Program-made: the position numbers and the translations under genes | Shown here: one piece after another, positions 11,465 to 38,443 of the stretch | Layout: every line of letters starts with the position of its first letter | How positions within the stretch are numbered: the first letter of the stretch is position 1 | The notes under the pieces: generated by a model | Seen by the model: the letters and a program-made list of their open reading frames with translations, nothing else | Databases searched by the model: none | Told to the model about the DNA's origin: nothing | Source: a phage | Sequence record: PZ379602.1 | Reading direction: 5' to 3' (one strand) | Length of the DNA: 44,991 nt

Positions 11465-12600
11465 ATGGCAGCAGCAAAGATTACCAACGAGCAATTAATC
11501 GAAGAACTGAAAAACGGCCTTACTAACAAGGCGATTGCAGAGAAGTATGGTATGAACATTCGTAACGTTGAGATTCGTCGCAGTAAGTTGGCTAAGAGTG
11601 GCTTGTTCGGGCATGGTAACGAAGGCATTAAGAAGCTAGTACCGGACGGATACTTGGTAAAAGGCACTTCGACCATGATTGATGCGGATGGGAATGAGAA
11701 GCTGCGTTGGGTTAAGACTTCAATTGATAATGAGCGCCTTGAGATTCTGCTTGAGCAAGCACGAGAGGCATTTTGTTCTGACTTACCAAAGGCAGTTGCC
11801 AGTGAGTGCCCAGACATTGATTTTGATGATGACACGATGGCTATGTATCCGGTTTTCGACCTTCACATTGGCGCAATGGCTCATAAGCATGAGTGCGGTG
11901 AAAACTACGACACTGCAACAGCAGAGAAGGTAATGAATAGCTTCTTTGATTATGCTGTAGATAAGGCTCCTAAATCAATAAATGCGACATTAGTTTTGGG
12001 GGTGATTTTCTGCATTACGACTCTCTAGAGGCTAAAACACCAGCATCAGGACATATCTTAGACAGCGACAGTCGCTATGCTAAATTGGTTTACGTAGCAA
12101 TCCGCTCAGTGCGTCGTGCGGTTTCAAGGATGCTTGAGAAGCACCAAATCATTGATATTAAAGTAATAAGTGGAAATCACGACGAAGCTGGGATGGTTTG
12201 GTTGCGTGCAGCATTGGCGGCATTCTATGAAGACGAGGAGCGAATTACTGTCGACGTAAGCCCAGCAGCAATGCTGATGACAAGCTTCGGCTCAACATTG
12301 ATTGGTTATACTCATGGTCACCAGATGCGAAAAGCTGAAACTCGACTTACAGTAATGGCTACAGACTTTCGTAAACTATTCGGTAACAGCGAATATGTCT
12401 ATACACACTCGGGCCACTGGCATAGTCAGAAAATTACAGAAACAAACCTGGGTATCGATGAAGTTCATGGTCAGCTTGGCGCGCCAGATGCCTATTCAGC
12501 TAATGGAGGATGGCGCTCAATGCGTCAAGCAGCGGTAATCGTTTACCATAAGCGTTTTGGTGAGGTTGGTCGATTTATTTGTCGCCCTGAGATGTTCTAA
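11465..12600 (+). CDS. calcineurin-like metallophosphoesterase with N-terminal HTH domain; split by a frameshift at a G5 run
   Basis: N-terminal HTH-like NKAIAEKYGMNIRNV; motifs DLHIG, GDFLHYD (only after a +1 correction at 11998-12002) and GNHDE; two ORFs 11465..12028 and 12085..12600 in different frames. Confidence 0.6.
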
Positions 12601-32402: not shown

Positions 32403-32832
32403 AAATATTGGTGGGTTGGCTACATTTACGAATAGTATTGCTGATTGGATTGATAGAGCTGATGATAACTTCTCTGATATTGTTTCTGGCACTGTAATTA
32501 AGGCTGCTAACGCCATCGTTGATTTATCGCCTGTTGATACTGGTAGGTTTAAGGCTAACTGGCAGATTACAGCGAACTCCCCAGCCGCTCAGTCTCTGAA
32601 TGATTACGACAAAACAGGTGGAGATACAAAAAGGTATCTGGCAAGGCAAGCTCGAGCTGTGGCTAATTCACCAGCGACAAAGGTTATCTACATAACTAAC
32701 AGGCTTGATTACGCCTCTGACCTTGAGTATGGATCGTCACAACAAGCGCCAGCAGGTGTACTTGGTGTAGTCAATATCCGGCTTGGGCGTTACTTCGAAG
32801 AAGCCGTAGCTGAAGCAAGGAGTAAACGATAA
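32386..32832 (+). CDS. neck / tail-component protein (by position)
   Basis: 148-aa ORF overlapping the upstream gene. Confidence 0.45.
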   Translation: MLPMARNIGGLATFTNSIADWIDRADDNFSDIVSGTVIKAANAIVDLSPVDTGRFKANWQITANSPAAQSLNDYDKTGGDTKRYLARQARAVANSPATKVIYITNRLDYASDLEYGSSQQAPAGVLGVVNIRLGRYFEEAVAEARSKR

Positions 32833-33229
32833 TGCAGTATGAATTATCTTTGGCGGCAAGGAGGTTTGTGACTGATTTGGTTAAAACGTTTCCAGTCAGG
32901 TATCCAATCTCCTATGAAAACGTAGCCTTTTCCCCTCAAGAAATGGCGGCATGTGGCTGAAGTACGATTATACCGAGGCTGACACAGTAACCTATAGCTT
33001 GAGTCGCAAGTGTAAGTATTATGTTGGCATGGTTCAGGTATCTGTCTTTTTCTCACCAGGTGATGGTGTTGATAGTGCGAGGAGAATTGCTAATCAATTG
33101 GCAGAATCAATGCTTGATGGTACAATGCTTGACACAGGCTACATTTATGAGGGCGGAGTAGTTCACCCGGTAGTGAAGTCAAAATCTGGCTGGTTTATTC
33201 CAGTTCGTTTCTATGTTCGTCTTGACTAA
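32832..33229 (+). CDS. tail completion-like protein, apparently split by a frameshift near 32928-32950
   Basis: 42-codon ORF 32832..32960 and ORF 32951..33229 together give about 133 aa; T4 and C4 runs at 32928-32935 are candidate sites. Confidence 0.4.
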
Positions 33230-33239
33230 AAGGTTGCAA

Positions 33240-33725
33240 ATGAAAGAGTTCTTAAATTCTCTTTACGATTATCGCGATGGTCAAATCTTTCATAAAGGAG
33301 GTTCAAAGCCATGTGGGTATGGAAAGCCTAACGGATACATTCAAACTTACGTCTCAAAGACTGGTAAGAAGTATGTTCACAGGATTATTTGGACAATGCA
33401 TAATGGAGACATCCCAGAAGGCATGCAAATTGACCATTTAAATGGCAATAGGAGCGACAACCGCATTGAGAATTTAAGGTGCGCATCAGTAACTGAAAAT
33501 AGAAGAAATTCAGGAACGAAATATAGGTATCGTAGATTCCCTGGTGTTAATGGTGTAAACTACAATAAGCGCGATAATCTTTGGCATGCAATGATTTCTG
33601 ATAATGGCGTAGCTAAGAGCCTTGGTCATTACAAGTCATTTGTTAGTGCATGTGAAGCTAGAATTATCGCAGAAGTAAATCTTGGATACCACGTAAATCA
33701 CGCGATGCGTGATAGCGTATATTAA
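33240..33725 (+). CDS. free-standing HNH homing endonuclease with AP2-like DNA-binding domain
   Basis: HRIIWTMHNG...QIDHLNGNRSDNRIENLRCASVTENRRN is an HNH motif; C-terminal YRGV-like region; inserted between tail completion and major tail genes. Confidence 0.8.
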   Translation: MKEFLNSLYDYRDGQIFHKGGSKPCGYGKPNGYIQTYVSKTGKKYVHRIIWTMHNGDIPEGMQIDHLNGNRSDNRIENLRCASVTENRRNSGTKYRYRRFPGVNGVNYNKRDNLWHAMISDNGVAKSLGHYKSFVSACEARIIAEVNLGYHVNHAMRDSVY

Positions 33726-33734
33726 CTTAACTCT

Positions 33735-34412
33735 TTGAATTGGAGGTGTATTATTGCCCATCTCAGCAATGGCACTCAGGTCTTCGTAGAAGGCACTAGG
33801 GGAGCTGCTATCGACGTAACCGCAATTTCCAACGCGGTTAATCCTGTTTTAACTTTGTCCAGCGTTGCAGATATTGCACGCGGTGACTACCTGTTGTTTA
33901 CCAGCTCCGCTTCAACTCTGCTGGCTGATAAGCAAGTTCGCGTTACCGCAGTGTCTGGTTCAACCGTAACTGTTGAAGGTATTGACACCTCCAGCACCAC
34001 CAAGTTCCCGGCCGGTTTAACTGGTGAAGTGGTTAAGATTCTTAGCTGGTTTGAGGTTCCTTGCGTTCAGGACGTATCCACTGACGGCGGCGAACAGCAG
34101 TTCGTTAACTTCCAGTGTTTATCCGATGACCGTGAGCAACAGATTCCAACTTATAAATCTGCGGTAACTAATACCTACACTTTCGCGCACGAATACACCA
34201 ACCCGATATATCCGATTCTGCGTAACTATGACGAAGCTGGTACTGTTGTTGCTATCCGTCTGTTCGTACCTCGCGCTAGTGAGATGCGTCTTCAGTCTGG
34301 CACTATCGCTTTCAACGACACGCCGAGCATTGGTGTTAACGAAATCGAAACGGTATCCATTGCGGTATCTATTCGCGGCAGGCTGAGTTCTGTAGCTTCT
34401 GAACTGGCATAA
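33735..34412 (+). CDS. major tail protein (start codon uncertain)
   Basis: Thr/Ser/Val-rich 225-codon frame; no in-frame ATG near the GGAGG RBS at 33742-33746. Confidence 0.55.
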   Translation: MNWRCIIAHLSNGTQVFVEGTRGAAIDVTAISNAVNPVLTLSSVADIARGDYLLFTSSASTLLADKQVRVTAVSGSTVTVEGIDTSSTTKFPAGLTGEVVKILSWFEVPCVQDVSTDGGEQQFVNFQCLSDDREQQIPTYKSAVTNTYTFAHEYTNPIYPILRNYDEAGTVVAIRLFVPRASEMRLQSGTIAFNDTPSIGVNEIETVSIAVSIRGRLSSVASELA

Positions 34413-34418
34413 AAATTA

Positions 34419-34441
34419 ACCCTCTTCGGAGGGTTTTTTAT
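34419..34441 (+). terminator. rho-independent terminator after the major tail gene
   Basis: Hairpin ACCCTC-ttcg-GAGGGT followed by T6. Confidence 0.7.
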
Positions 34442-34443
34442 TG

Positions 34444-34505
34444 ATAGCACTTTTTGTTAAAGGCTAAGTCGCGGATTGCTGTATAGTTCATTCATCGAAA
34501 AGAAA
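34444..34505 (+). promoter_or_regulatory. modular promoter-like element inside the tail module (box ATAGCACTTTTTGTTAAA, TATAGT, CATCGAAAAGAAA)
   Basis: 22-bp spacing; leader box 5 nt after the hexamer. Confidence 0.5.
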
Positions 34506-34520
34506 TGAGAGATTAATGAA

Positions 34521-34769
34521 ATGAACAACGTTAAAAATATCATCAAACTTGCTGCTGCTCTTGGTGCTTTCTACCTGGCAATTCAGATTGTCAACCCAAC
34601 TGGTGGCGCAACCGCTAACTCTGATGCAATAAAGTATGAACATGAATTTAATAGTGCATATTCTCATTGTGAAAAAGTAGCTGGCGATAAGACAAATCAG
34701 ATTCTGCATTATGGTCGCGAGGTGTGCACCGAAGTTGCTCACAACATTGTAAAAAACGAATCAAAGTAA
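34521..34769 (+). CDS. small secreted protein with predicted signal peptide (82 aa), moron-like
   Basis: N-terminal hydrophobic segment IIKLAAALGAFYLAIQIV; own promoter-like element; located between the major tail and chaperone genes. Confidence 0.5.
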   Translation: MNNVKNIIKLAAALGAFYLAIQIVNPTGGATANSDAIKYEHEFNSAYSHCEKVAGDKTNQILHYGREVCTEVAHNIVKNESK

Positions 34770-34804
34770 TATAATCATTCAACACAAACAAAGGAGATAA
34801 CGAG

Positions 34805-35119
34805 ATGGCAAAATTTAAACTTTCACTTAAGGCGCTGCCTGACTTTAAACTTCCGGTTAAGTTTCAGTTAGCGAATGGTGAAGATGCAGAGGTGGTACTA
34901 ACAGTTAAGCACAAGAAATCATCTGAACTTCAGGAGATTCTTAATCGTGAAAACTTCAGCACTAAAGAATTGATTAACGAAATCTGCTCTGACTGGGATT
35001 TAGAAGAACCATTTAACGATGAGAACGTCGATGAGTTTGCAAACCTATTCCCAGGTGCAGTTCCATCATTGATGGATAGCTACATGAAAGCGCTGGCTGG
35101 GCAGCGAGTAAAAAACTAA
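34805..35119 (+). CDS. tail assembly chaperone (G-like)
   Basis: 104-aa acidic ORF immediately upstream of the tape measure gene, ending at a slippery sequence. Confidence 0.65.
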   Translation: MAKFKLSLKALPDFKLPVKFQLANGEDAEVVLTVKHKKSSELQEILNRENFSTKELINEICSDWDLEEPFNDENVDEFANLFPGAVPSLMDSYMKALAGQRVKN

Positions 35120-35433
35120 AACGCGCAGTATACTTACAATACCAGTCACCACCAACGGATGCCGAACTCGAAGCTATCGGAATGAAACGTTCCGATTATG
35201 AAGGTGATGAGCCTGAAGAGTTATACTTCGATGAAACAATGATGCAAAGCTGGGATGTGTACTGTGCCATGTCAACTCAATGGCGAGTAGGGGCTTGCGG
35301 TGCCACAGGCCTTGATTATAATTGCCTTCCATTCTTGTTCAAAGTCTATAAAATAGATGATGACGAAATGGTACTTAACGACATCAGAATACTTGAGGCT
35401 AAAGCCTTAGATATGATGAACGCCAAGAAATAG
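34805..35433 (+). CDS. tail assembly chaperone frameshift product (GT-like), via -1 programmed frameshift
   Basis: Heptamer A AAA AAC at 35110-35116 in the zero frame; the -1 frame is open from there through ORF 35182..35433. Confidence 0.55.
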
Positions 35434-35456
35434 CCATCCTTCGGGGTGGCTTTTTT
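35433..35456 (+). terminator. rho-independent terminator
   Basis: Stem GCCATCC / GGGTGGC (one G-U) with ttcg loop, followed by T6. Confidence 0.6.
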
Positions 35457-35470
35457 ATTATGGAGACAAC

Positions 35471-38443
35471 ATGGCAACTAACGAAATTGCTGGTATCACG
35501 CTAGCCGTCGACGTAGCTCAGGTCGATAAGGGTACGCAATCCTTACAGAAATTCAGGCAAGCAAACGAGCAAGCTGCAACAGGCATTAATAGCTTCGTCA
35601 ACGCCGAACTTGTAGCCAAGACTCAAGCAAGGGACACTGCAAGGCAGCTTGAGGAGCAGCGCAAATCTTTCGCATCACTTCAGCAAGCCATAGACCCAAC
35701 CGCTGCTAAATTCCTGAAGTTGCAGAAAGCAGCAACAGATTTGGACAAAGCATTTGAATCCGGGATAGTTCCTGATGATGAATTCTTCAGGCTTGGCTCT
35801 GTTATTGAAACTCAAATCAATAAGCTAAACAGGTCTAAAGCCGCTCTTAGCGAAGAAGGCAGGGCTGCACTACAGGCATCAATAGATAAAGAGAAAGCAA
35901 CAACAGCAGCACAAAAGTTCATTCAATCTCTTGAGAACGAGGCGAATGCAGCAAGCCTGACAAGGACTGAACTTCTTCAGCTTAAGGCTGCTCAGCTAGG
36001 AGTTAGTGACCAGGCTGCACCGATTATCGACAGGATTGGAAAGGCTGCCGAGGCATCTGCGGTACAATTGCAGAAGCAAAGCTCCGCTTTTGTTAAGTCT
36101 GGGCTTAGTGCCGGTCAATACAAGCAAGCAATTCGACAGCTTCCAGTGCAGATTACAGATATCGGAACCTCTCTAGCTGGTGGTATCCCAATCTGGCTAA
36201 TTGCAATTCAGCAGGGTGGGCAGATTAAGGATAGCTTTGGTGGTATTGCTAACACCGCAAGGTTCGCACTGGCAGCCATTAACCCATTAACGGCAGTTGT
36301 TGGGACTTTGGGCTTGGCCCTCGGCGCTCTTGGTGTTGCTGCTTATCAGGCTGACAAGAACACTCGCGGACTAGCATCAACGATAACATTGGTTGGCAAC
36401 TCAACTATCACGTCGACAGCGCAGATAAATCAGGTTGTTGATGGAATTGAGAGTTCAACACTAGCCACGCGCGGACTTATCCAGGAGATAGCTAACAGCC
36501 TGGTAGCAAACGGTAATCTGACTCTTACGCAGATAGATAAGATAACCAAGGCGACAGCACAATGGGCAACTGTAACATCAACAGACTCGAAAACTATTCT
36601 TGGATACTTTGATCAGATTACAAAGGACCCAATTCAAGGTCTGATTGCACTCGATAAGCAGTTCAACTTCCTTCAGTCTGGGCAATTGAAATACATTGAG
36701 AATATCAGGAAGACGGCTGGAGAAACAGAGGCTGTAACCGCAGCTACTGAGCTATTCGCTAACGTTATGGAAAACAGGCTAGCAGACGTAGCACTAAGCC
36801 TTAACCCTCTTGAGAGCGCATGGAATAGCTTCAGGAAGTTTGTAAGTGAGATTTGGGATGATATAAGCAAAAGGACGCTTGGGGCGCTTAACTTAATAAC
36901 TGACGTTGTTGCTGGGACTATTGAGCAGATAAGGTCGTTAATAAACTCCGGTGATATCCTATTGGGCGAGTTTGCAATAGCAGCAACCAAGACACTTCAG
37001 TCAATACCTGGACTTGGCGATTTAGGCAATGAAGCAATCGCTGAGCAGCAAAAGATTGTTGATGCAGCTAAGAAGCAAAATGAGGAGTTAGCAAAAAGCA
37101 TAGCTGAGCGAGATGCGAGAATCAGGAAGGGTGAGCTTGGTTATGTCGAGAACAACAATAACACCAACCTTAGCGGAAATAATGCATCAACCGATAAGGA
37201 GTTTGCAGCAAGGAAGAAGGCTCTTGCCGATGAGTATGATGCGATAAAGAAAGCAGGGAGTGAGAGGAAAAAGGCTGTAAAAGAAGAAAGGGATTTAACT
37301 TTATCTTATGAATCTGGCGTTCTTGCACTTCAGGCTCAGTTAAAGGTCTTACAAGAGCACAGAACGATAAATGATGTAATAAGCAATGAAAGAAAGCAGT
37401 TATTCCAGGAAGAAGCGAAGTTTGCAATACTTGAACAAAGACAAGCGGATGGTACGCTTACAAAATCACAGGCTAAGCTACTTGCGCAGAAGAATATCAT
37501 TCTTGAACAGGCTAAACAGAAGGCTGAACTTGGTGACCAGATTGTGCTTCAGGAGAGGTCAAACAAGTTACTTGATGACAACCTTAAGAAGACTGTGCAG
37601 ATTACAAATGAAGCAAATAATTTTTCACTTGCTGCTAATTTATCTGACAGGGAGAAGCAAAGAGCAAAAGAGCTTCAGGCACTTCAATCCAATCAGGTAA
37701 ACAAAGGTGGTTCTGTAGATGATACTGATTTTCAGGCATTACTAGAAGCCAGGCGTAATTTCTATGCTCAAGAGGATGCGCTACGTGAAAACTGGCTTGC
37801 TGGTGTGCAATCATCCTTCGCTAATTGGGCAGAGAGCGCGACAGATGCATTCTCTATCGCTGGTGAATTGACCACTTCCGTCTTTACCGGAATTACCGAG
37901 CAGATCACCAGCCTTGTAACAACTGGCACGGCAGACTTCAGGAGTTTTACCGTTGAGATCCTGAAACAGATTGCCAGGATTGCGACTCAACTCTTAATTG
38001 TTAAGGCCATTGAGTCAAGTCTGAGTAGTTTTGGTGGTACTGGCGGCGCTATTGGTTCAATTGGTAGTGCGCTTGGTTTTGCTGGCGGAGGTTATACTGG
38101 TGATGGCGGGAAATATCAACCTGCTGGGACTGTTCACCGTGGTGAGTTTGTATTCACAAAAGAGGCTACAAGCAGGATTGGTGTTAAGAATCTGTACAAG
38201 CTGATGCGCGGTTATGCAAATGGAGGTGCTGTTGGTGGGCCATCTGGTTATGCTAATGGTGGGGTTGTCGGCGGTACTAATGTCAGTGTTGGTGGTGTGA
38301 CGGTTAACGTAAACTCTGGAATCGGTGGCGGAAATGATGCTAAGGCGATAGAATCTGGAGTTAAGGTTATCGTGGCTGAGGAAATCAGCAAATCATTCCA
38401 ACAGGGTGGCAGAGCGTATCAGTTCTTGCGCGGTTACAACTAA
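35471..38443 (+). CDS. tail tape measure protein
   Basis: 990 aa; long Ala/Gln/Lys-rich helical N-terminal part and Gly-rich C-terminal region; position after the chaperones. Confidence 0.9.
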   Translation: MATNEIAGITLAVDVAQVDKGTQSLQKFRQANEQAATGINSFVNAELVAKTQARDTARQLEEQRKSFASLQQAIDPTAAKFLKLQKAATDLDKAFESGIVPDDEFFRLGSVIETQINKLNRSKAALSEEGRAALQASIDKEKATTAAQKFIQSLENEANAASLTRTELLQLKAAQLGVSDQAAPIIDRIGKAAEASAVQLQKQSSAFVKSGLSAGQYKQAIRQLPVQITDIGTSLAGGIPIWLIAIQQGGQIKDSFGGIANTARFALAAINPLTAVVGTLGLALGALGVAAYQADKNTRGLASTITLVGNSTITSTAQINQVVDGIESSTLATRGLIQEIANSLVANGNLTLTQIDKITKATAQWATVTSTDSKTILGYFDQITKDPIQGLIALDKQFNFLQSGQLKYIENIRKTAGETEAVTAATELFANVMENRLADVALSLNPLESAWNSFRKFVSEIWDDISKRTLGALNLITDVVAGTIEQIRSLINSGDILLGEFAIAATKTLQSIPGLGDLGNEAIAEQQKIVDAAKKQNEELAKSIAERDARIRKGELGYVENNNNTNLSGNNASTDKEFAARKKALADEYDAIKKAGSERKKAVKEERDLTLSYESGVLALQAQLKVLQEHRTINDVISNERKQLFQEEAKFAILEQRQADGTLTKSQAKLLAQKNIILEQAKQKAELGDQIVLQERSNKLLDDNLKKTVQITNEANNFSLAANLSDREKQRAKELQALQSNQVNKGGSVDDTDFQALLEARRNFYAQEDALRENWLAGVQSSFANWAESATDAFSIAGELTTSVFTGITEQITSLVTTGTADFRSFTVEILKQIARIATQLLIVKAIESSLSSFGGTGGAIGSIGSALGFAGGGYTGDGGKYQPAGTVHRGEFVFTKEATSRIGVKNLYKLMRGYANGGAVGGPSGYANGGVVGGTNVSVGGVTVNVNSGIGGGNDAKAIESGVKVIVAEEISKSFQQGGRAYQFLRGYN

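What the first reader, a model, noticed from the sequence alone, without database searches (positions are those of the whole stretch)
35110..35116. Canonical -1 slippery heptamer A AAA AAC at the end of the tail chaperone gene
The heptamer sits in the zero frame two codons before the chaperone stop, and the -1 frame is open from there through ORF 35182..35433, giving a G/GT-like fusion (...QRVKKLKRAVYLQ...). This conserved chaperone frameshift is easily mistaken for two separate genes, and it contrasts with the non-canonical homopolymer breaks elsewhere.
Basis: partly seen in the sequence, partly recalled or inferred. Interest (0 to 1): 0.45.

Follow-up and report, generated by a model that had tools for sequence, protein, structure and literature searches.

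The report
Phage tail chaperone -1 frameshift site
This is the ordinary, already described ribosomal frameshift site at which a T1-like E. coli phage should make a small amount of an extended tail-assembly chaperone; it is real but not new.

Summary
Window 35108-35119 reads GTA AAA AAC TAA in the frame of ORF 34805-35119 (104 aa, Pfam Phage_TAC_4). The -1 frame is open from 35080 to 35433 and encodes a DUF1799 domain. The pair lies between the major tail gene and the tape measure gene.

- One PHROG family (213 positions) matches both halves end to end.
- The 22 codons between the slip site and the first possible start (ATG 35182) vary like coding sequence in the -1 frame across 81 distinct relatives.
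- That ATG has no Shine-Dalgarno sequence and is Leu in 74% of relatives.
- The slip site keeps its position across Drexlerviridae and in distant Ralstonia phages (G_GGA_AAC TGA).

The identical GTAAAAAACTAA signal is already annotated as a joined CDS in Citrobacter phage Stevie and mentioned in print. It is therefore known, although every record of this phage's own clade lists two genes.

Three qualifications:
- A_AAA_AAC is canonical in shape but a weak shifter in E. coli (0.16% without a stimulator).
- This lineage lacks the downstream hairpin found in T1 and Stevie.

No protein-level evidence exists here.

The parts
33735..34412 (+). Major tail (tube) protein gene; upstream boundary of the chaperone slot. 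The exact start codon was not determined.
   Evidence: Pfam Phage_tail_3 2e-67 and phrog_584 1e-84.
34805..35119 (+). Tail assembly chaperone gene (G-like), 104 aa, zero-frame product. It has a strong SD (AAAGGAG).
   Evidence: Pfam Phage_TAC_4 8.2e-33 over residues 1-104. Anti-SD duplex -8.7 kcal/mol. The exact protein is in public databases as 'tail assembly chaperone' of phage TR1.
35080..35119 (+). Overlap window in which both the zero frame and the -1 frame are open. Any -1 shift must happen here.
   Evidence: The -1 frame opens at 35080.
35110..35116 (+). Slippery heptamer A_AAA_AAC in zero-frame phase.
   Evidence: Same motif at the same place in 59 (probably 60) of 90 loci compared, window included. 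Third-codon-position variation is suppressed here.
35117..35119 (+). TAA stop of the chaperone, directly 3' of the heptamer. Possible 'shifty stop' contribution (inferred).
   Evidence: A stop (TAA or TGA) overlaps the invariant -1 frame Leu codon in all 86 informative relatives.
35116..35433 (+). -1 frame extension (T-like, DUF1799), 105 codons plus stop. Translated only as the C-terminal part of the 209-aa fusion, join(34805..35116,35116..35433).
   Evidence: Pfam DUF1799 1.7e-14. phrog_17368 positions 109-211 (6e-50) and phrog_680. Coding-type codon periodicity in the 22 codons before the first start codon.
35182..35184 (+). First start codon (ATG) in the -1 frame, used by annotators for an 83-aa 'TfmS/DUF1799' gene. 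Judged not to be a real start.
   Evidence: No SD (-0.2 kcal/mol). Lies within a 9-bp hairpin at 35176-35196. The residue is Leu in 74% of 81 distinct relatives, and the first start codon lies 3 to 153 nt after the slip site in different phages.
35432..35451 (+). Terminator-like hairpin with a T run, right after the fusion's stop and before the tape measure gene.
   Evidence: Terminators are annotated at the same place in T1, Stevie and Shelby.
35471..38443 (+). Tape measure protein gene; downstream boundary of the chaperone slot.
   Evidence: Pfam TMP_2 1.8e-47, Tape_meas_lam_C 1.8e-19, phrog_24 4e-241.

Best explanation
This is a programmed -1 ribosomal frameshift of the phage tail-assembly-chaperone type. 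Most ribosomes translating gene 34805-35119 stop at TAA 35117 and release the 104-aa chaperone. A small fraction slip back one base on A_AAA_AAC (35110-35116), next read CTA at 35116, and continue for 105 codons to 35433. The result is a 209-aa fusion whose C-terminal DUF1799 domain has no other route to expression.

By analogy with lambda gpG/gpGT, the shared N-terminal part would coat the tape measure protein, and the rare extension would recruit the major tail protein. The slip rate would then set the G:GT ratio.

Shown here: the sequence geometry, the protein families, the lack of an independent start, and conservation of the arrangement. Inferred: that the shift is ribosomal, that its rate is low (the heptamer is weak in E. 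coli and has no stimulatory structure here, so the adjacent stop codon may help), and the function of the two products.
For: - Geometry: GTA AAA AAC TAA, with the -1 frame open from 35080 to 35433.
- Families and synteny: major tail gene, then Phage_TAC_4 ORF, then DUF1799 ORF, then tape measure gene, then M/L/K-like genes.
- Fused family: phrog_17368 matches G at positions 1-107 and the -1 ORF at 109-211.
- Spread: tblastn of the fusion finds 1139 phage records. In 906 of them one place covers at least 80% of the query, and all listed full-length matches are two pieces.
- Junction conservation: YM.ALAGQR.K.L+RAVYL spans the junction and is the most conserved stretch of the fusion.
- Coding signal: the 22 post-slip codons upstream of ATG 35182 show entropies of 0.68/0.63/1.32 at codon positions 1/2/3. 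This is like the bona fide coding parts (G residues 1-90: 0.83/0.65/1.51).
- No independent start: there is no SD at 35182, the ATG is not conserved, and no start codon occurs between 35080 and 35182.
- Position of the slip motif is conserved while its sequence changes: A_AAA_AAC, A_AAA_G, A_AAG_G, and G_GGA_AAC TGA in a Ralstonia phage about 31% identical.
- Precedent: the same GTAAAAAACTAA in Citrobacter phage Stevie is annotated as a joined CDS (PMC4319613). Joined CDSs or stated frameshifts also exist for Shelby and Solomon (PMC8407766).
- A_AAA_AAC is a proven, stimulator-free frameshift site in IS1 (PMC4066793).
Against: - No protein or ribosome-profiling data exist for this phage, and I found none for any T1-like phage in the searched literature.
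- A_AAA_AAC shifts at only 0.163% without a stimulator and 0.739% with the IS3 pseudoknot in E. coli reporters (PMC4066793, supplementary table).
- No downstream structure: MFE -3.3 kcal/mol, z +0.86; rank 44 of 45 among relatives.
- No upstream SD-like element: -3.8 kcal/mol, 31st percentile.
- The heptamer is not enriched in the window.
Confidence: 0.88

Rival explanations
1. Two separate genes. The downstream ORF is translated on its own from ATG 35182 as an 83-aa DUF1799 protein, as nearly all database records annotate it. The heptamer would then be incidental.
For: - An ATG exists at 35182, and the 83-aa protein is listed in many records as TfmS, minor tail protein or DUF1799.
- The Pfam DUF1799 model starts near that Met, at residue 22 of the -1 reading.
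Against: - The SD duplex is -0.2 kcal/mol, weaker than at 76% of all ATG triplets in the window.
- The ATG sits in a 9-bp hairpin.
- The residue is Leu in 74% of relatives, and the first start codon in this frame lies anywhere from 3 to 153 nt after the slip site.
- The 22 codons upstream of it are conserved as protein in the -1 frame and are covered by phrog_17368 and phrog_680.
Confidence: 0.04
2. Transcriptional slippage. RNA polymerase adds one A in the A6 run (35110-35115), giving an A7 mRNA. Ordinary translation of that mRNA reads GTA AAA AAA CTA..., which is the VKK-LKR fusion.
For: - The site is a run of six A.
- Three related assemblies carry an A5 run at this site (L010, L058, L069), so the run length is unstable at least in sequencing.
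Against: - The RNA:DNA hybrid is 9-10 bp (PMC5009743). From my own knowledge, productive slippage in bacteria uses longer runs, about A9 as in Thermus dnaX.
- Homologous sites in Webervirus (GCA AAA GTT), Rogunavirus (GCA AAG GTC) and Ralstonia phages (G GGA AAC) have runs of only 3-4 identical bases. They still keep a ribosomal slip geometry.
Confidence: 0.06
3. Assembly or sequencing indel, or a pseudogene. G and T would really be one in-frame gene, or the break is an error like the other frame break in this window.
For: The window has at least one lineage-specific 1-nt deletion that splits a tail gene near 32935.
Against: - The G/T frame break and its exact sequence are shared by independent genomes across several Drexlerviridae subfamilies.
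- No good-quality relative has G and T in one frame.
- The few exceptions carry multiple other frame errors.
Confidence: 0.01

Closest known systems
Tape measure chaperone frameshift of T1-like phages (Drexlerviridae), as annotated in Citrobacter phage Stevie (KM236241), Klebsiella phage Shelby (MK931445) and Klebsiella phage Solomon
   Same: - Homologous gene pair (Phage_TAC_4 plus DUF1799) and the same position between the major tail and tape measure genes.
- Stevie has the identical GTA AAA AAC TAA and a joined CDS.
- The terminator after T is also shared.
   Different: - Stevie and T1 have a hairpin of -16 kcal/mol (z -3.9 and -4.5) starting 7 nt after the heptamer. The window and other Braunvirinae lack it.
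- Shelby uses A_AAA_G rather than the heptamer.
- The window's own clade is annotated as two genes everywhere, and the exact fused protein is absent from a 15-billion-protein collection.
Bacteriophage lambda gpG/gpGT (G_GGA_AAG, about 30:1 ratio; Levin 1993 and Xu 2004, 2013, 2014, as cited in PMC5009743)
   Same: - Two overlapping ORFs between the major tail and tape measure genes, with the second in the -1 frame and lacking its own start.
- A heptamer near the end of G.
- The presumed division of labour: G binds the tape measure, T binds the tail tube protein.
   Different: - Different protein families. Lambda G is Phage_TAC_2/TIGR01674 and lambda T is Phage_tail_T/TIGR01715.
- No detectable similarity to the window proteins.
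- The lambda heptamer is an efficient E. coli motif and lies 4 codons before the stop. Here the motif is weak and abuts the stop.
IS1 insA-insB' -1 frameshift
   Same: Uses A_AAA_AAC in E. coli at a low level with no established stimulator (PMC4066793).
   Different: It is a transposase, not a phage morphogenesis protein, and the proteins are unrelated.
E. coli dnaX (A_AAA_AAG)
   Same: Tandem lysine-type -1 slippery heptamer in E. coli.
   Different: dnaX has an AAG A-site codon, an upstream SD and a downstream hairpin, and shifts at about 50%. Here the A-site codon is AAC and no stimulators were found.

Membership tests
Tail assembly chaperone G/GT-type programmed -1 frameshift (Xu, Hendrix & Duda 2004 class) | Two ORFs located between the major tail protein gene and the tape measure gene | tested here: met
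   Phage_tail_3 gene 33735-34412, G 34805-35119, T to 35433, TMP 35471-38443. One extra small ORF (34521-34769) lies between the major tail gene and G.
Tail assembly chaperone G/GT-type programmed -1 frameshift (Xu, Hendrix & Duda 2004 class) | Second ORF overlaps the end of the first in the -1 frame and lacks its own start and RBS | tested here: met
   The -1 frame opens at 35080. The first start codon is at 35182, with no SD (-0.2 kcal/mol), and it is not conserved.
Tail assembly chaperone G/GT-type programmed -1 frameshift (Xu, Hendrix & Duda 2004 class) | Slippery sequence in the correct phase inside the overlap | tested here: met
   A_AAA_AAC at 35110-35116.
Tail assembly chaperone G/GT-type programmed -1 frameshift (Xu, Hendrix & Duda 2004 class) | Arrangement conserved among related phages even where the sequence diverges | tested here: met
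   87 of 90 loci keep a slip motif at the same position. A Ralstonia phage at about 31% identity has G_GGA_AAC TGA.
Tail assembly chaperone G/GT-type programmed -1 frameshift (Xu, Hendrix & Duda 2004 class) | Fusion protein actually made, at a low ratio to G, and required for tail assembly | not testable with these tools
   This needs a western blot or mass spectrometry, plus genetics.
Pfam Phage_TAC_4 (PF08748) / DUF1799 (PF08809) chaperone pair of T1-like phages | Sequence match above the curated thresholds | tested here: met
   113.7 bits against a cut-off of 21.1, and 54.2 bits against 26.
Lambda gpG (Phage_TAC_2, TIGR01674) and gpT (Phage_tail_T, TIGR01715) sequence families | Sequence or profile similarity to lambda G and T | tested here: not met
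   No Pfam or NCBIfam hit to these families. BLASTP E 0.013 and 39. hhalign probability below 1%. The site works like lambda G/GT but is not a member of its protein families.
Stimulated -1 PRF signals (heptamer plus downstream hairpin or pseudoknot, or upstream SD) | Stable structure 5-9 nt downstream, or an SD-like element upstream | tested here: not met
   Downstream z-scores +0.86 and +0.72. No consensus structure. Upstream anti-SD duplex -3.8 kcal/mol, unremarkable. No Rfam match.

The most novel reading that the evidence does not exclude
Within one phage family the same chaperone frameshift site comes in at least three forms: a heptamer with a strong hairpin (T1, Stevie), a bare heptamer abutting the stop (this window and other Braunvirinae), and a bare A_AAA or A_AAG tetramer (Webervirus, Rogunavirus).

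If the bare A_AAA_AAC, which gives only about 0.16% in E. coli reporters, really supplies enough fusion protein, there are two possibilities. Either the adjacent stop codon acts as the stimulator (a 'shifty stop' with P-site slippage during slow termination), or this lineage assembles tails with a far lower GT:G ratio than lambda's roughly 1:30. The family would then be a natural series for studying how the frameshift rate is tuned.
Probability: 0.25. Interest if true: 0.3.

Novelty: already known. Interest (0 to 1): 0.15.

Why it matters
The main value is for annotation.
- In this clade (Christensenvirus-like Braunvirinae), and even in the T1 reference record, the fusion is missing. The downstream ORF is called from an arbitrary internal start.
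- It also serves as an internal control for this window. The G/T frame break is conserved and functional, whereas the break near 32935 is private to this sequence.
- Biologically it adds nothing new to the G/GT paradigm, apart from the modest point that the stimulatory hairpin is lineage-specific.

Tried and rejected
- Motif enrichment: AAAAAAC is, if anything, depleted in the window. In-phase heptamers with long -1 extensions also occur at ordinary gene junctions. Motif statistics were dropped as evidence.
- Downstream stimulator in the window: none by single-sequence folding, by RNAalifold on 22 diverse relatives, or by Rfam.
- The T1/Stevie hairpin tested as a family-wide structure: 68.6% of cells paired against 66.0% in shuffles, and only 3 pairs with changes on both sides. 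This is not convincing as a conserved element, so it is treated as lineage-specific.
- Upstream SD-like stimulator: not found.
- Rare-codon argument for the CTA Leu codon after the heptamer: rejected, because CTA makes up 17% of Leu codons in the neighbouring tail genes sampled.
- Homology to lambda G/T: none by BLASTP, hhalign, Pfam or NCBIfam.
- Solved structures: no PDB relative by sequence.
- Structure prediction and the large protein searches were not run, because the answer did not depend on them.
- Apparent exceptions: L010, L058, L069 and L090 have several other frame errors and are probably low-quality assemblies. L068 was a mis-picked ORF and is canonical.

Full report
**1. What is in the sequence**

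Window 35100-35125 reads GGCAGCGAGTAAAAAACTAAAACGCG. In the frame of ORF 34805..35119 the last codons are CAG CGA GTA AAA AAC TAA. So 35110-35116 is A_AAA_AAC in exact X_XXY_YYZ phase, and it is followed at once by the stop at 35117-35119.

The -1 frame is open from 35080 to the stop at 35431-35433. It is the frame of ORF 35182..35433. The two frames overlap for only 40 nt, and the heptamer is the only slip-type motif in that overlap.

The heptamer as such is not unusual. It occurs 7 times in the window, against 12.7 +/- 3.7 expected. Of 52 in-phase XXXYYYZ motifs in long open frames, three have a -1 extension of at least 100 codons. At least one of these is probably just a neighbouring gene.

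**2. What the genes are**

- ORF 34805-35119 (104 aa) is a full-length match to Pfam Phage_TAC_4 (8e-33).
- The -1 reading from 35116 matches DUF1799 (1.7e-14).
- Upstream lies the major tail tube gene (Phage_tail_3, 2e-67).
- Downstream lie the tape measure gene (TMP_2, Tape_meas_lam_C) and lambda M/L/K-like genes.
- A single PHROG family of 213 positions (phrog_17368) matches the chaperone at positions 1-107 and the -1 ORF at positions 109-211. The family was therefore built from fused proteins, and the two halves abut exactly at the heptamer.

The window is 94-96% identical over this region to E. coli phages ES, AN_ECEAS, TR2, TR3, Rao1 and CY1. These belong to Drexlerviridae, Braunvirinae, and TR2 to the genus Christensenvirus.

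**3. Is the downstream ORF expressed on its own?**

- The first ATG, GTG or TTG in the -1 frame is ATG 35182, which lies 22 codons after the slip point.
- Its upstream region pairs with the anti-SD at only -0.2 kcal/mol. That is weaker than at 76% of all ATG triplets in the window. The values are -8.7 for the chaperone gene, -6.4 for the tape measure gene, and -5.8 and -6.4 for the next two tail genes.
- The ATG lies inside a 9-bp hairpin at 35176-35196.

I then compared 90 loci: the window, 9 annotated phage records and 80 IMG/VR contigs. Of these, 86 were informative and gave 81 distinct fused coding sequences.

- The residue equivalent to this Met is Leu in 74% of them.
- The first start codon in the -1 frame lies anywhere from 3 to 153 nt after the slip site.
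- The 22 codons between the slip site and ATG 35182 are nevertheless the best conserved part of the fusion (mean column identity 0.76).
- They vary like coding sequence in the -1 frame. Entropy at codon positions 1/2/3 is 0.68/0.63/1.32, compared with 0.83/0.65/1.51 for the body of G and 0.84/0.58/1.32 for the body of T.
- The motif YM.ALAGQR.K.L+RAVYL runs straight across the junction.

These codons are translated, and a frameshift from G is the only route to them.

**4. Conservation of the site**

tblastn with the fusion finds 1139 phage records. In 906 of them one place covers at least 80% of the query, and the listed full-length matches are two pieces in different frames.

| Junction sequence | Loci (of 90, window included) | Lineage |
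|---|---|---|
| A_AAA_AAC followed directly by TAA or TGA | 59 (probably 60 with L068) | Braunvirinae, Tempevirinae, T1 itself |
| GCA AAA GTY TAA | 21 | Webervirus |
| GCA AAG GTC TAA | 6 | Rogunavirus |
| A5 instead of A6, with other frame errors | 3 | Probably poor assemblies |

A_AAG and A_AAA are the known shifty tetramers in E. coli (PMC4066793).

A Ralstonia phage only about 31% identical has CGG GGA AAC TGA, that is G_GGA_AAC abutting the stop, at the aligned position. Its upstream ORF is also Phage_TAC_4.

The slip position is thus held while the slip sequence changes. This is what a ribosomal recoding site predicts. It argues against transcriptional slippage as the general mechanism, because the runs are only 3-4 bases long in several lineages.

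**5. How it most likely works**

Most ribosomes terminate at TAA and release the 104-aa chaperone. A minority shift -1 on the heptamer, read CTA (Leu) at 35116, and continue to 35433, giving a 209-aa fusion.

Under the classical tandem model the tRNAs chosen in the zero frame (Lys on AAA, Asn on AAC) re-pair on AAA and AAA. The junction would then be ...QRVKN-LKRAVYLQ..., which is the whole of G plus 105 residues. It would be the true product only if tRNA-Lys slips on A_AAA before AAC is decoded, or if an A7 transcript is translated. This point is inference, and mass spectrometry can settle it.

The rate is probably low. In E. coli reporters A_AAA_AAC gave 0.163% without a stimulator, 0.189% with the IS911 stimulators and 0.739% with the IS3 pseudoknot. 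Background was about 0.055% (PMC4066793 main text and supplementary table). tRNA-Asn cannot re-pair cognately on AAA. The same paper notes that this weak motif is nevertheless used by IS1 without any known stimulator.

I found no stimulator in the window:
- The 54 nt after the heptamer fold at -3.3 kcal/mol, z +0.86.
- The window ranks 44th of 45 distinct relatives for downstream stability.
- RNAalifold on 22 diverse relatives finds nothing.
- No SD-like element lies upstream.
- There is no Rfam match.

The only remaining context feature is the stop codon directly 3' of the heptamer. It is invariant in position across the family. A 3' stop is a known stimulator of shifting ('shifty stops', Weiss 1987, listed in PMC5009743). 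That it acts here is inferred, not shown.

The functions of G and GT (coating the tape measure protein, recruiting the tube protein, and a ratio set by the slip rate) are taken from lambda (PMC5009743, citing Levin 1993 and Xu 2013, 2014). They were not tested for this family.

**6. Comparison with what is known**

The site works like lambda G/GT. The proteins, however, are not detectable members of the lambda families:
- Lambda G and T hit Phage_TAC_2/TIGR01674 and Phage_tail_T/TIGR01715. The window proteins do not.
- BLASTP and hhalign show no similarity.

They belong to the Phage_TAC_4/DUF1799 pair typical of T1-like phages. For that family the frameshift is already on record:
- Citrobacter phage Stevie carries the identical GTA AAA AAC TAA and a joined 'tape measure chaperone' CDS. 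[quoted passage not shown]
- Klebsiella phage Shelby has a 'tail assembly chaperone frameshift product'.
- The Solomon paper reports the same (PMC8407766).

Annotation elsewhere is poor:
- T1's reference record lists two genes, the second only 55 aa.
- All close relatives of the window list two genes, or omit T altogether.
- The exact G and the exact 83-aa ORF are in public databases as separate proteins, while the exact 209-aa fusion is absent.

**7. One real difference**

T1 and Stevie have a hairpin starting 7 nt after the heptamer (GGCGGUU..CUGU / AUCAG..AACCGCC). It folds at -15.9 and -16.1 kcal/mol, z -4.5 and -3.9, with 0 of 200 shuffles folding as well. That is the right distance for a stimulator.

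The window, AugustePiccard (Braunvirinae) and C119 (Rogunavirus) have nothing comparable. In the window, the synonymous codons for R-A-V and P-P differ from those that form the stem (alignment).

Across the whole family the pairing is not supported by covariation. I therefore treat the hairpin as a lineage-specific feature worth an experiment, not as part of this finding.

**8. Verdict**

This is a known kind of element in a known family, so interest is low. Its practical use is to correct the annotation of this phage clade.

Noticed in passing
window 32832-33229 (indel near 32935): A tail gene that is one 133-aa ORF in phages AN_ECEAS and TR2 is split here into 42-aa and 92-aa ORFs. The cause is a 1-nt deletion at a C-rich run (TTTTCCCC-TCAAG versus TTTTCTCCACCAAG). 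The break is private to this window, so it is either a sequencing error or a recent mutation. It is not a conserved recoding site.
   Followed up: partly
window 33213-33725: A 170-aa ORF lies between the split tail gene and the major tail gene. I judged it HNH-endonuclease-like by eye from its translation; no family search was run. AN_ECEAS and TR2 have no gene at this spot, whereas RobRod40 has an annotated HNH endonuclease just before its major tail gene. It is likely a mobile homing endonuclease insertion.
   Followed up: no
window 34418-34769: A terminator-like hairpin (34418-34435) follows the major tail gene. After it comes a small 82-aa ORF (34521-34769, phrog_22925, unknown function; its N-terminus looks hydrophobic by eye). 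This slot varies among relatives: a 128-aa ORF in AugustePiccard, extra DNA in TR2, and nothing in C119 or tunzivis. A promoter-like site at 34747-34775 precedes the chaperone gene.
   Followed up: no
window 35432-35451: A strong terminator-like hairpin (8 bp, TTCG loop, T run) lies between the end of the fusion ORF and the tape measure gene. Terminators are annotated at the same position in T1, Stevie and Shelby. It may attenuate tape measure expression relative to the chaperones.
   Followed up: partly
L092:895-924 (phage T1), L095:764-793 (phage Stevie): A stable hairpin starts 7 nt after the heptamer in T1, Stevie and many Tempevirinae (-16 to -20 kcal/mol, z -3.3 to -4.9). It is absent from the window's lineage. 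Family-wide covariation is weak.
   Followed up: partly
window 35176-35196: A 9-bp hairpin (AUCGGAAUG AAA CGUUCCGAU) contains the ATG at 35182. The same pairing is possible in C119 but not in all relatives (judged by eye from the alignment). It may simply follow from the I-G...S-D codons.
   Followed up: no
L010, L058, L069 (IMG/VR contigs), L090 (Klebsiella phage KshKPC-M): Three contigs have A5 instead of A6 at the slip site. They and KshKPC-M carry further frame breaks inside G or T. These are most likely homopolymer sequencing errors.
   Followed up: partly
protein clusters of window 34805-35116 and 35182-35430: Near-identical copies of this phage's chaperone and DUF1799 proteins are filed in RefSeq under Nitratidesulfovibrio liaohensis (on contigs up to about 46.7 kb) and, in part, under Staphylococcus aureus. 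This probably reflects coliphage contamination of those assemblies.
   Followed up: no
window 11995-12001: An in-phase T_TTG_GGG lies 8 codons before the end of ORF 11465-12028, with the -1 frame open for 199 codons. The downstream ORF is listed from TTG 12085. This is probably an ordinary neighbouring gene and not a recoding site.
   Followed up: partly
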